Positions 9,126 through 12,100 of a DNA stretch of 64,000 nucleotides are shown piece after piece. The DNA lies in NCBI RefSeq assembly GCF_044647545.1, contig NZ_CP172818.1, one strand, 5' to 3'. This DNA is from Escherichia coli (GTDB taxonomy: Bacteria; Pseudomonadota; Gammaproteobacteria; Enterobacterales; Enterobacteriaceae). Made by a program: the position numbers. Within the stretch, counting starts at the first letter, position 1, and each line of letters starts with the position of its first letter.

Positions 9126-12100
9126 ACCCAAAAAAAACCCCCCCCCCCCAATTTTCGTGCAGCGAGTCCCATTTCCCCCGATAAGACCGGTATTTCTTCA
9201 GGCCACAGGAGACTTCAGGCCAAGCTGCTGCATCAGTTTTCGCACCGTTTTGCCACTGAACTTGAGACCTCTTTTCTGAAGTTCACAGTCGATCCGCCGG
9301 TACCCATAACATCCCCGGTGTTCATGGAAGATGGAGGGGATGGGCTGTTTCACATCACAATACTTTTCTTAGCCTTCTGCAGTGACAGCTGATAGTACAG
9401 CGTGCTTCTGGCCAGCCCTGCGAAGCCTTTAACAGGTCAGACTGGCAGTGTCCGCACCTCAGGTTCTGGATGACTTTCGCTTTTTCTCCAGCTCCAGGCG
9501 CTTTTTTCCCAGGAGATCCTCCTGCATGCCTTCCAGATATGCATTTCCTGCGCAAAAATACCCCCCTCCTTCTTCTCTCTTTCCGCCCTCTGTTTCCCCT
9601 CCTTTTCTCGGGTATCAACAAAACGGTCATTCTTTTCTCCCTCCCGCGCCTAAAAAAGCCCTCACCACCAGTTTGTGTCGCCTTTTTCCTGTTTTCCGCC
9701 GTGTGGTGGCCGGGAATGTTAAAGCCGGCCGGCCGCGGGGGAGAGACAGAGAAAATGCGAGAAAACAAAAAAAAACACGCAAAGTCTCTCTAGAAGAAAA
9801 TAGCCGCCCCCGTTCCTGCAATCCAGGAGCAGAAGAGCGAAAAAAAAAAAAAGAATAAAGGGGGGAGGGGGTGGTATAAAAAAGTTAAAATTGTTGTGGT
9901 GAAAAAAGGAGGCCAGACGGGCCGGTGAAAAAATTCTGTGGGGAAGACTATTTTAAATAAAGGTTTTGTAAAAAACACCACCTGATGTGATATGATATTC
10001 ACTACAAGTGTGGGGTGGAGTTTACGCGCCCTAATCATCACGCGCTGGTAATGTCGTAATCCATTTGGCGCAGCGCGTCTAATGTGGCTTTGGCTTCGTC
10101 TTCATCGATGATGCTCATGGCAAATCCGACGTGCACCAGTACCCACTGGCCCAGCAGATCGGCAGGGTTACCTTCGCAAATCAGGGCGATATTCACGTCG
10201 CGCTTGATACCACATACTTCAACCTGCGCAAGCTGGTGAATATCTTCACCGACAGCCAGCACCTGGCCTGGAACGCCAATACACATTGTTAACTCCGGTT
10301 ATTCAACTTCAATACTTTTGACGATCAGCGAATCGCCGGTATCGACACGCAACCGCTCGCCATGACAGAGCGGGCATTGCGCATCGTGCTGATGAATCTC
10401 CACCACCTGGCTGCAATCCCAGCACCAGGCCTGGGCGGGTTTATAGACGATATGTAAATCGCACCCTTGCGCCACCGTTCCGTGGCAGACAATTTCAAAA
10501 CTAAAACGGACGGCGCTCTCCTCAACGCAGGAGAGCGCGCCAATTTCCAGCCACACGGCGGTGACGCGCTTAACATCGTGCTGCTCCGCCTGCCGTTGGA
10601 TAATTTCAACGGCGCTCTGGCAAAGCGACAACTCATGCATTTTCGCCACTCCTGCGGCCAAACAGCAGGGCGCGACGCCCTGCGTGTGGTACATCCGGAT
10701 TGGTGACTGGCAGCGAAAGGATCATTCGTGCGCAGTCATCCGTCAGGCGTTGGCCCTCTTCAATCGACATGCTGTGCGAAAGCGGCGACATCAGCGAACA
10801 GGAGAGATATTGAGAAACACCGTCCAGTTCGCCAACGGTAAAGGTCATAGTGCCATACGGCAGTTGCAGACCAATTTTTTCACTCACTTTGCGCAGCGGC
10901 CAGAGTTGATCCGGGCCGGGGAAGATAACCGCACTCAGCATCCACGGGGTGATCACACACCCCGTCCACTGACCTTCGAACAGCGTAAAGTCAGAAACAT
11001 ACACCGGCATTGAAGGATGCAGAAAAGAGAGATCGTGCATCGAACGCCGGGCAATTTCTTCAAACGCTGCCTGTACTTGCGCCTTCGGGGAGGTCTGGAA
11101 ACCTGCTATCTCTTCAGTCATGAATCGCCTCCCGTGGGATGGCTTCCACGCCTGATTCGCGCAGCGCAGCCAGAACCTGCTCAAGCGCAGGTTCAATCAT
11201 CGCTTCAACCGTCGGCGTTAAGCCGATGTGTGGCTCCAGCGATTCCGGGATCACGCCGACCAGGGTCAGCTTTTTCGGAAACTCACCGGTGAAGCGCAGG
11301 GCCGACAATACGTCGGCCAGGCCAAGCTGATGCGGAGAGATTTTGTTGGTAAACAACGCCGGAACTTCTTCATCCCGCAGGATCATCATCGTTCCCGGCG
11401 CGCTCTTCTTCGACACAATAGCATCCGCAATGATCAGATGATCGCGATTTGCCATGTCGCCAAGCAGCTCCATTCCCGCCGTGCCGCCATCGAGGATCTC
11501 AACATAATCCGGCAGAATGTATCGTTGCTCTAACGCTTCGACAATCCGCACACCGATGGCTTCATCGGTCAGCAAAATATTGCCGACCCCTAAGACTAAA
11601 ATACGCATTACAGAACCTTCACTGAAACCACTTCGTTGCCGTCAGCATCCACTACGTGTACCGCACAGGCCATGCACGGGTCGAAGGAGTGAATGGTACG
11701 CACCACTTCCAGCGGTTTATTCGGATCGGCAACCGGCGTACCCACCAGCGACTGCTCGTAAGGACCGACGTCATCATTGAAGTTACGCGGGCCAGAGTTC
11801 CAGGTTGATGGAACAACTGCCTGGTAGTTACTGATAATACCGTCTTTGATCACCATCCAGTGAGAGAGCATACCGCGCGGCGCTTCAAGGAAACCAACGC
11901 CTTTGAACTCACCTGTAGCCGGAATGTTCGGCTTCACAAAGGTGGTGTGATCGCCTTTGCCGATATTGGTGATCAGTGCACTGTATTGATTTTGCAGGAT
12001 ATCCTGCAATTCGCAGCAGTGAACGGTACGACCAATAATACGGCCCAGCGTGGAGTGCAGCTGCGCCACTTCCAGCGTGTTGCCAGTCAGTTTCTGATAA

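What the first reader, a model, noticed from the sequence alone, without database searches (positions are those of the whole stretch)
9180..9560. Scrambled IS3-family transposase relic with an A_AAA_AAG frameshift heptamer inside block A
The minus strand translates, in three different frames over about 380 bp, to peptides typical of IS3-family OrfA/OrfB: AGNAYLEGMQEDLLGKKRLELEKKRK (leucine-zipper end of OrfA), GLARSTLYYQL and IFHEHRGCYGYRRIDCELQKRGLKFSGKTVRKLMQQLGLKS (OrfB N-terminus). The canonical -1 slippery heptamer sits at about 9501..9509. The pieces are compressed and frame-shifted relative to each other, with no DDE domain and no recognisable inverted repeats. This is either a heavily decayed IS remnant or an imitation of one.
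Basis: seen in the sequence. Interest (0 to 1): 0.5.

Follow-up and report, generated by a model that had tools for sequence, protein, structure and literature searches.

The report
Garbled copy of insertion sequence IS1397
The "scrambled transposase relic" is a known E. coli insertion sequence (IS1397) at a site where close relatives carry it intact, and its scrambled look comes from corrupted sequence text, not from evolution.

Summary
The minus strand of 9180-9560 encodes IS3-family OrfA/OrfB peptides, with an A_AAA_AAG heptamer at 9507->9501. The source is IS1397, a 1432-bp IS3-family element that targets REP palindromes. Sixty-nine complete E. coli genomes of the ST648 type carry it intact at this spot between yghU and hybG.

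It is not an evolutionary relic. Outside a few blocks the window is almost identical to strain Ecol_881. Inside 8980-10037 the element is 92-100% identical over 9151-9550 and falls to about 58% by 9950. Identity returns to 100% at the hybG stop codon. About 514 bp encoding the DDE domain are replaced by 106 bp of homopolymers, including a 31-nt C run.

Substitutions copy neighbouring bases, Ts/Tv is 0.77, and G is selectively lost. The same damage affects three unrelated blocks (1-705, 29005-30018, 51788-51954). Small lesions mark nearly every other point where the ST648-type genome departs structurally from K-12. Natural IS1397 copies differ by 3% or less.

The scrambling is therefore non-biological. 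The most likely cause is a lossy consensus or reconstruction anchored on a K-12-like backbone, though model-written text is not excluded. Interest is low.

The parts
8978..9014 (.). DNA downstream of yghU: one half of the REP palindrome that is the IS1397 target, plus a remnant of the 4-bp target duplication (ATTT, 9011-9014). It matches the real sequence except for dropped bases.
   Evidence: 19 real bases are missing from 8978-9050, and 15 of them are G. Searches give the real flank GCCGGATAAAGCATTT|TGAACTG.
9015..9044 (-). Degraded terminal inverted repeat of IS1397 at the yghU side. The real sequence TGAACTGAACCCCAAAACCTGGACAGTTTCAGTTAAC reads T-AACT-AACCCCAAAACC---ACA-TTTCA-TTAAC here.
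9045..9150 (.). Homopolymer junk (T12, C31, A8, C12; no G on the + strand). It stands in for about 514 bp of the real element (L001 1863-2376), which encode OrfB residues from about 121 to 291, the rve/DDE catalytic core.
   Evidence: Pfam places rve at residues 128-226 and rve_2 at 233-285 of the real OrfB. No residual similarity to the real segment was detected (z 0.6).
9151..9507 (-). N-terminal part of OrfB (about residues 1-120, including HTH_21). It is 92-100% identical to intact IS1397-type DNA but is broken by indels at 9157, 9172, 9203, 9365 and 9423-9424.
   Evidence: NCBIfam NF033516 hit for ORF 9198-9353.
9501..9507 (-). The -1 frameshift heptamer A_AAA_AAG, at the position homologous to the real element's OrfA/OrfB junction.
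   Evidence: The 50 nt downstream (9451-9500) are 100% identical to the real element.
9462..9975 (-). OrfA region. The C-terminal coiled-coil part (9474-9551) is recognisable. The N-terminal HTH part (9551-9975) is progressively garbled, falling from 82% to 58% DNA identity, with multiple stop codons.
   Evidence: identity profile. (tblastn with OrfA gives only 32% identity, split over three frames).
9976..10020 (-). Garbled 5' untranslated end and terminal inverted repeat of IS1397 at the hybG side. The real TGAACTGCACCCCAAATGTTGGAC reads approximately CTCCACCCCACACTTGTAGTG here.
10021..10037 (.). Remnant of the second target-duplication copy and the other REP half, with about 13 bases lost. 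Perfect identity to real genomes resumes at the hybG stop codon (10038).
   Evidence: hybG ORF 10038-10286.

Best explanation
Window 9015-10020 is a copy of the known insertion sequence IS1397. It sits in the centre of a REP palindrome between yghU and hybG, exactly where ST648-type E. coli carry an intact 1432-bp copy.

The real element works as IS3-family elements do (mechanism from the literature, not tested here). OrfA is a DNA-binding protein with a helix-turn-helix and a coiled coil. A programmed -1 ribosomal frameshift at A_AAA_AAG fuses OrfA to OrfB, giving the OrfAB transposase with an HTH_21 domain and a DDE (rve) core. Imperfect inverted repeats beginning TGAACTG bound the element. 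Insertion into the REP centre leaves a 4-bp duplication.

The scrambled state of this copy is not biological decay. It is a corruption of the sequence text. Any cell that this window represents most likely holds an ordinary IS1397, probably intact, though that cannot be read from this text.

On how the corruption arose (inferred, about 0.55 within the artefact class): the window looks like an ST648-type genome reconstructed on a K-12-like scaffold. DNA shared with K-12 is reproduced with the strain's own alleles. Insertions of about 1-1.5 kb relative to K-12 come out as out-of-register, locally averaged consensus. Larger islands are lost, with the common empty-site sequence left in place.
For: Shown directly:

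(1) Sixty-nine of 5426 complete genomes have an annotated IS3-family transposase with a programmed frameshift at this spot. Copies 97% identical to it are annotated IS1397.

(2) The real element is 1432 bp. It has inverted repeats, a 4-bp ATTT duplication and a REP target. Its OrfB scores 330 bits against NF033516 and contains HTH_21, rve and rve_2. IS1397 is described as an IS3-family, REP-specific element in PMC1525189.

(3) The window is colinear with that element.

(4) The flanks are essentially identical to Ecol_881. Stretches of 8074, 3454 and 2271 bp are 100% identical. At 1377 of 1380 sites where K-12 and Ecol_881 differ, the window has the Ecol_881 allele. The block itself is 82% identical to the real element and 500 bp shorter.

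(5) Natural full-length IS1397 copies in about 1700 genomes are 96.8-100% identical.

(6) Identity is 92-100% over 9151-9550, falls steadily to 58% by about 9950, and returns to 100% at 10038.

(7) There are 56 transitions and 73 transversions. Of 129 substitutions, 89 copy a neighbouring base, against 60 expected at random.

(8) G drops out selectively: 15 of 19 missing bases are G, and there is no G in 151 nt of the + strand.

(9) Of 30 homopolymer runs of 8 nt or more, 29 lie in the 4.6% of the window occupied by the blocks. The longest is 31 nt, against 9 nt in 170 kb of real sequence.

(10) The same damage hits non-IS DNA: coding sequence at 1-705 with its ORF broken, two hypothetical genes at 29005-30018, and 51788-51954. 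Small lesions occur at 20903, 42403-42435, 55409-55420 and 58587-58590.

(11) All block edges coincide with the edges of K-12 homology.

(12) A 33-mer from the corrupted text is absent from the genome and metagenome collections I scanned. No complete E. coli genome matches the block.

(13) A simulated majority consensus of reads drifting out of register from a left anchor reproduces the homopolymer texture.
Against: The exact process is not identified.

The simple out-of-register consensus simulation does not reproduce the length compression (1432 to about 1006 bp here; 1565 to 1014 bp in block B). It also does not reproduce the recovery to near-perfect sequence at 9151 in mid-block.

Block 0 shows no trace of the IS5 that K-12 carries at that place.

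K-12-only segments such as mqsRA and the fimbrial region are cleanly absent, yet the 59-bp and 53-bp empty-site fillers are retained. A consensus pipeline would need special behaviour to do both.

Those fillers are the majority E. coli state and are not K-12-specific.

I cannot see reads or provenance. Whether the underlying genome has an intact or a truly truncated IS1397 therefore cannot be determined.
Confidence: 0.88

Rival explanations
1. The block was written by a generative or predictive sequence model, as an imitation or in-fill. The model reproduces common E. coli DNA from memory, derails on rare strain-specific DNA into degenerate homopolymers, and locks back on at the next familiar gene. 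This is still an artefact, so it changes the cause and not the verdict.
For: The decay runs left to right with abrupt re-locking. Fidelity recovers inside the multi-copy IS core after a stretch of junk. Degenerate poly-A and poly-C text is present. The two large islands are replaced by the majority empty-site sequence, a combination seen in none of 5426 complete genomes; the best full-length match is 98.8%. The text is absent from the public collections scanned.
Against: A free-running model could hardly keep one lineage's alleles at 1377 of 1380 discriminating sites over 60 kb while having no memory of that lineage's accessory DNA. Block 0 garbles a sequence present in 76% of E. coli genomes but missing from K-12, which points to a specific scaffold and not a population prior. 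The junk half of block B still carries a colinear trace of the real genes (z 6.4-7.6), as expected from a noisy read-out of real DNA.
Confidence: 0.28
2. A genuine evolutionary relic: an old IS1397 copy decayed by mutation and internal deletion in the chromosome of this strain.
For: IS relics are common in E. coli. The DDE region is missing and the frames are broken, as in many real pseudogenised IS copies.
Against: The flanks are about 100% identical to genomes with the intact element, so there has been no time for 18-40% divergence. Natural copies differ by 3% or less. The error spectrum is non-mutational: Ts/Tv 0.77, neighbour-copying, G dropout and runs of up to 31 nt. The decline is monotonic and resets exactly at the hybG stop codon. 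Identical damage occurs in unrelated genes, including essential-looking coding sequence such as the ubiK 3' end and yghQ. No other genome has this version.
Confidence: 0.03
3. Part artefact, part real: the underlying genome has a genuinely truncated IS1397 with an internal deletion of the DDE region, and text corruption is superimposed on it.
For: The 514 bp to 106 bp replacement leaves no detectable trace of the real segment (z 0.6), unlike block B. A real deletion under the junk therefore cannot be excluded.
Against: Block C shows that junk without any trace also arises where there is no IS. All 69 genomes with the element at this site, as listed, have the full-length annotated transposase. 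Nothing specifically calls for a real deletion.
Confidence: 0.08

Closest known systems
IS1397 (IS3 family; specific for REP/palindromic units of E. coli)
   Same: It occupies the same locus and orientation as the intact copies in ST648-type genomes. It is colinear with them, and 92-100% identical over OrfB residues 1-120 and the frameshift cassette. The A_AAA_AAG site is the same, and remnants of both inverted repeats and of the split REP target are present. REP targeting is the published hallmark of IS1397 (PMC1525189).
   Different: The copy is about 1006 bp, not 1432 bp. The DDE core is replaced by homopolymers. The OrfA N-terminus and both ends are garbled to 58-80% identity, and the frames are broken. 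These differences are artefactual, not a variant of the element.
IS150 and other IS3-family elements with OrfA, a -1 frameshift and an OrfAB DDE transposase
   Same: The architecture of the real element: a 173-aa OrfA, the A_AAA_AAG slippery site, OrfB in the -1 frame with HTH_21 plus rve, inverted repeats beginning with TG, and a short target duplication.
   Different: IS150 does not target REP centres (from memory, not tested here). The window copy lacks the catalytic domain.
Natural truncated or pseudogenised IS copies (true IS relics)
   Same: Broken frames and a missing catalytic domain.
   Different: True relics carry point mutations and clean deletions at levels consistent with their flanks. 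They do not show homopolymer smearing, loss of a single base type or a positional gradient of error. They are also shared by related strains. None of that holds here.
Low-quality consensus stretches in reference-guided or long-read assemblies; degenerate output of sequence models
   Same: Errors are confined to insertions relative to a scaffold. The boundaries are sharp, sequence is averaged towards the locally commonest base, and long homopolymers occur. A simulation reproduces the texture.
   Different: No specific pipeline or model reproduces every feature. Compression and the mid-block recovery remain unexplained, and provenance is unknown.

Membership tests
IS3 family / IS1397 | Sequence homology to IS3-family transposase, specifically IS1397 | tested here: met
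   tblastn with the real OrfB gives 91-100% identity (E 1e-44). NF033516 hit at E 5.6e-11, though at 42 bits it is below the 160-bit full-length cut-off because only a fragment survives. 85% DNA identity over 780 nt. Close relatives are annotated IS1397.
IS3 family / IS1397 | Slippery heptamer A_AAA_AAG at the orfA/orfB overlap | tested here: met
   Found at 9507->9501, at the position homologous to the real element's site. A downstream hairpin is predicted but is not distinctive (z -0.8).
IS3 family / IS1397 | Intact orfA and orfB reading frames able to give OrfAB | tested here: not met
   OrfA is split over three frames at 32% identity. OrfB is interrupted by five indel events and ends at about residue 120. 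Both frames are intact in the real copy in L001.
IS3 family / IS1397 | DDE (rve) catalytic domain | tested here: not met
   In the real OrfB, rve lies at residues 128-226 and rve_2 at 233-285. The corresponding DNA is replaced by junk at 9045-9150.
IS3 family / IS1397 | Terminal inverted repeats (TG...CA) and a 3-4 bp target duplication | tested here: inconclusive
   The real element has the TGAACTG repeats and a 4-bp ATTT duplication. The window has only degraded remnants, at 9015-9044 and about 9990-10020, with ATTT at 9011-9014 and TTT at 10021-10023.
IS3 family / IS1397 | Insertion in the centre of a REP / palindromic unit | tested here: met
   The real locus reads GCCGGATAAAGCATTT | IS | ATTTACGCCGCATCCGGC. 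The window keeps both halves in damaged form. The published specificity is given in PMC1525189.
Evolutionary IS relic (pseudogenised copy) | Divergence commensurate with the flanks and with the natural variation of the element | tested here: not met
   Flanks are about 100% identical to Ecol_881. Natural copies differ by 3% or less. The block diverges by 18-42%.
Evolutionary IS relic (pseudogenised copy) | Mutational error spectrum: transition bias and no positional gradient | tested here: not met
   Ts/Tv is 0.77. 89 of 129 substitutions copy a neighbour, against 60 expected. Identity declines monotonically and resets at the gene boundary. G drops out, and runs reach 31 nt.
Evolutionary IS relic (pseudogenised copy) | Same version present in related genomes | tested here: not met
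   No genome among 5426 complete E. coli matches the block. A 33-mer from it is absent from genome contigs and metagenome contigs.

The most novel reading that the evidence does not exclude
The garbling is real DNA. In that case an unsampled close relative of ST648 would have a process that specifically scrambles recently acquired, strain-specific DNA into homopolymer-rich sequence while leaving core genes untouched. The process would be a targeted hypermutation or degradation-and-resynthesis of foreign DNA.
Probability: 0.01. Interest if true: 0.85.

Novelty: not a real feature. Interest (0 to 1): 0.07.

Why it matters
Biologically it matters little. The underlying object is an ordinary, well-described insertion sequence (IS1397) in its usual REP target, at a site already annotated in dozens of genomes.

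The practical value is as a warning. About 4.6% of this window consists of corrupted text that mimics decayed or exotic features: blocks at 1-705, 8980-10037, 29005-30018 and 51788-51954, plus several small lesions. Two or three accessory islands of the nearest relatives are missing. Other findings from this window that fall in or next to those coordinates should be treated as artefacts until the record's provenance is checked.

Tried and rejected
1. Natural decay. Rejected on flank identity, the error spectrum, and the same damage in unrelated genes.

2. A natural divergent allele for 1-705. Rejected because the yghQ-type ORF is intact in the 100%-identity part and breaks into stop codons once inside the block.

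3. A simple polished K-12 draft. Not supported as stated. Block 0 has no trace of IS5, and K-12-only segments are absent. Even so, every lesion sits at a structural breakpoint between K-12 and the ST648 type.

4. K-12-specific empty-site fillers. Rejected: they are the majority E. coli alleles, present at 99% identity or more in 61% and 51% of genomes.

5. Finding the corrupted text in public data, using a 33-mer against genome contigs and metagenome contigs. No hits, so this says nothing about provenance.

6. A frameshift-stimulating RNA structure. The predicted hairpin is not distinguishable from shuffled sequence.

7. Primary IS1397 papers (PMC94167, PMC169884) are not held. The published 1432-bp size, the 3-4 bp duplication and the IS150 grouping are from memory; the 1432-bp length and 4-bp duplication of the L001 copy were measured here, the grouping was not checked. 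REP specificity and IS3-family membership are cited from PMC1525189.

8. A left-anchored, unaligned majority-consensus simulation. It reproduces the texture but not the compression or the mid-block recovery.

Full report
WHAT IS THERE

The window is E. coli chromosome (gss, yghU, hybG-F-E-D-C and onward). The finding lies in the 1060-bp interval between the yghU stop (8977) and the hybG stop (10038). A_AAA_AAG lies at 9507->9501. The 51-aa ORF at 9198-9353 hits NCBIfam NF033516 (IS3 family transposase) at E 5.6e-11.

WHAT IT DERIVES FROM

Of 5426 complete E. coli genomes, 69 carry an annotated IS3-family transposase with a programmed frameshift at exactly this position. In strain FDAARGOS_497 (locus L001) the element spans 1826-3257, which is 1432 bp. 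It has imperfect terminal inverted repeats, TGAACTGAACCCCAAAACCTGGAC and TGAACTGCACCCCAAATGTTGGAC. It has a 173-aa OrfA and an A_AAA_AAG site, with OrfB in the -1 frame. OrfB scores 330 bits against NF033516 and contains HTH_21 (residues 52-105), rve (128-226) and rve_2 (233-285).

The element splits a REP palindrome, GCCGGATAAAGCATTT | IS | ATTTACGCCGCATCCGGC, leaving a 4-bp ATTT duplication. Copies 97% identical to it are annotated by RefSeq as IS1397. IS1397 is the IS3-family element known for inserting specifically into REP sequences (PMC1525189). Natural full-length copies in about 1700 genomes are 96.8-100% identical to the L001 copy.

HOW THE WINDOW COPY RELATES TO THE REAL ONE

The window is colinear with the real locus from end to end.

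- 8978-9044 is the real sequence (REP half, duplication, inverted repeat) with bases dropped. Fifteen of the 19 missing bases are G.
- 9045-9150 is T12, C31, A8 and C12, with no G at all on the + strand. It stands in for 514 bp of the real element, which encode the whole DDE core.
- 9151-9550 is 92-100% identical to the real element. It contains 20 lesions, and five indel events among them break the frame.
- From 9551 identity declines steadily, from 82% to 70% to 58% by 9901-9950. It returns to 100% exactly at the hybG stop codon.

The pieces are therefore not compressed relative to each other. They keep their native spacing.

WHY THIS IS NOT EVOLUTIONARY DECAY

1. Outside a few blocks the window is almost identical to Ecol_881 (NZ_CP019029). 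Stretches of 8074, 3454 and 2271 bp are 100% identical, and only about six point differences occur elsewhere. At 1380 sites where K-12 and Ecol_881 differ, the window has the Ecol_881 allele 1377 times. There has been no time for an IS to diverge by 18-40%.

2. The substitutions are not mutation-like. There are 56 transitions and 73 transversions. Eighty-nine of 129 substitutions copy a neighbouring base, against 60 expected at random. Typical examples are AAGAAGAAAAAG becoming AAAAAAAAAAAA and GTGTGAGAGGCTGGTG becoming GGGGGAGGGGGTGGTA.

3. Of 30 homopolymer runs of 8 nt or more, 29 lie in the 4.6% of the window made up by the blocks, and they reach 31 nt. In 170 kb of real Ecol_881 and K-12 sequence the longest run is 9 nt.

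4. The same pathology affects sequences that have nothing to do with IS elements.
   - 1-705 covers the 3' end of a yghQ-type gene and the start of the next gene. It is colinear with the real sequence at about 72% identity. The ORF is intact in the clean part and full of stop codons inside the block.
   - 29005-30018 covers two hypothetical genes of Ecol_881. It decays from the left with dropped bases into poly-A runs of up to 31 nt, then returns to 100% at 30019. Even the junk half keeps a colinear trace of the real genes (z 6.4-7.6).
   - 51788-51954 is poly-A/C junk around a damaged REP.
   - Small lesions sit at 20903, 42403-42435, 55409-55420 (which deletes the 3' end of ubiK) and 58587-58590.

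5. No complete E. coli genome has this version of the block. A 33-mer from it is absent from the genome and metagenome collections I scanned.

WHAT PRODUCED THE CORRUPTION (INFERRED)

Every block edge coincides with an edge of homology to K-12: 8979/10031, 29007/30019, 51789/51953 and about 723. The small lesions also sit at structural breakpoints between K-12 and the ST648 type.

Two islands of 7.3-7.7 kb in Ecol_881 are absent. In their place are 53-bp and 59-bp empty-site sequences identical to K-12. Block C stands where Ecol_881 has a 3.7-kb island. No complete genome combines these flank alleles with the first (59-bp) empty site, the only junction tested; the best full-length match is 98.8%. 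The fillers are, however, the majority E. coli state.

Block 0 is informative. The real sequence under it is present in 76% of genomes but is cut off in K-12 by an IS5, within about 20 bp of where the window becomes clean. That points to a K-12-like scaffold and not to a general prior based on commonness.

Together with the strain-true alleles, this favours a reconstruction anchored on a K-12-like backbone. In such a reconstruction, insertions are rendered as an out-of-register, locally averaged consensus, and large insertions are lost. A simulation of a left-anchored, unaligned majority consensus of noisy reads reproduces the texture. It gives runs of 8-37 nt and a same-as-previous fraction of 0.38-0.55, against 0.56 observed and 0.28 in real DNA. 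It does not reproduce the length compression or the recovery at 9151.

A generative-model origin would explain the directional derailing, the re-locking and the good recall of the multi-copy IS core. It is hard to reconcile with 1377 of 1380 lineage-true alleles and with block 0. I put the consensus-type artefact at about 0.55 and model-written text at about 0.3. Neither changes the verdict on the finding.

MECHANISM OF THE REAL ELEMENT

This rests on established knowledge of the IS3 family, applied to the anatomy shown. OrfA binds the inverted repeats. A -1 frameshift at A_AAA_AAG yields the OrfAB transposase, whose DDE core catalyses transposition. IS1397 inserts into REP centres.

In the window text, the heptamer and the 50 nt after it are intact. 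OrfA, OrfB and the catalytic core are not, so the copy as written could not transpose or be translated into a transposase. The predicted hairpin after the heptamer is not distinctive (z about -0.8).

VERDICT

The decayed-relic reading is rejected in favour of corrupted sequence text. The finding has low interest in itself. It is useful as a flag that about 3 kb of this window, and its island content, cannot be trusted.

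Noticed in passing
window 1-705: The window opens inside another garbled block. It is colinear with the 3' end of a yghQ-type LPS-biosynthesis gene and the next hypothetical gene of Ecol_881, at about 72% identity with inserted junk. The ORF breaks into stop codons at the block edge. Clean sequence resumes within about 20 bp of the point where K-12's homology starts (K-12 has an IS5 there).
   Followed up: yes
window 29005-30018: A garbled and compressed rendition of two hypothetical genes that only about 122 complete genomes carry between ygiQ and yqhH. 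It shows left-to-right decay, poly-A runs of up to 31 nt, and an abrupt return to 100% identity at 30019. A colinear trace of the real genes persists through the junk.
   Followed up: yes
window 51788-51954: About 165 bp of poly-A/C junk surround a damaged majority-type REP between ygiC and ygiD. Ecol_881 has a 3.7-kb assT-dsbL-dsbI island at this position.
   Followed up: partly
window 32290-32348 and 43661-43713: Two islands of the nearest relatives are absent: 7.7 kb (TRAP transporter and dehydrogenases) and 7.3 kb (siderophore receptor and ABC transporter). Each is replaced by the majority empty-site sequence (59/59 and 53/53 identical to K-12). The flanks keep ST648-type alleles. For the first junction, the only one tested, no complete genome shows this combination; the best full-length match is 98.8%.
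   Followed up: partly
window 20903; 42403-42435; 55409-55420; 58587-58590: Small lesions occur exactly at structural breakpoints between K-12 and the ST648 type. They are a 5-bp loss, a garbled 33-bp segment, about 64 bp of the ubiK 3' end replaced by TTTGAAAAAACC, and an inserted GGGG.
   Followed up: partly
L001 1826-3257 (NZ_CP033850 634845-636276): The intact IS1397 copy splits a REP palindrome at its centre and leaves a 4-bp ATTT duplication. It is a textbook example of the element's REP specificity, at a site shared by 69 complete genomes.
   Followed up: yes
hits H44-H55 (e.g. NZ_CP018801 258145-258213): Most E. coli genomes, including K-12 derivatives, carry an unannotated stretch of about 68 bp that is 94% identical to the yghU-side end of the IS1397 query (5 bp of flank plus the first 65 or so bases of the element). 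It may be a solo IS1397-end-like sequence.
   Followed up: no
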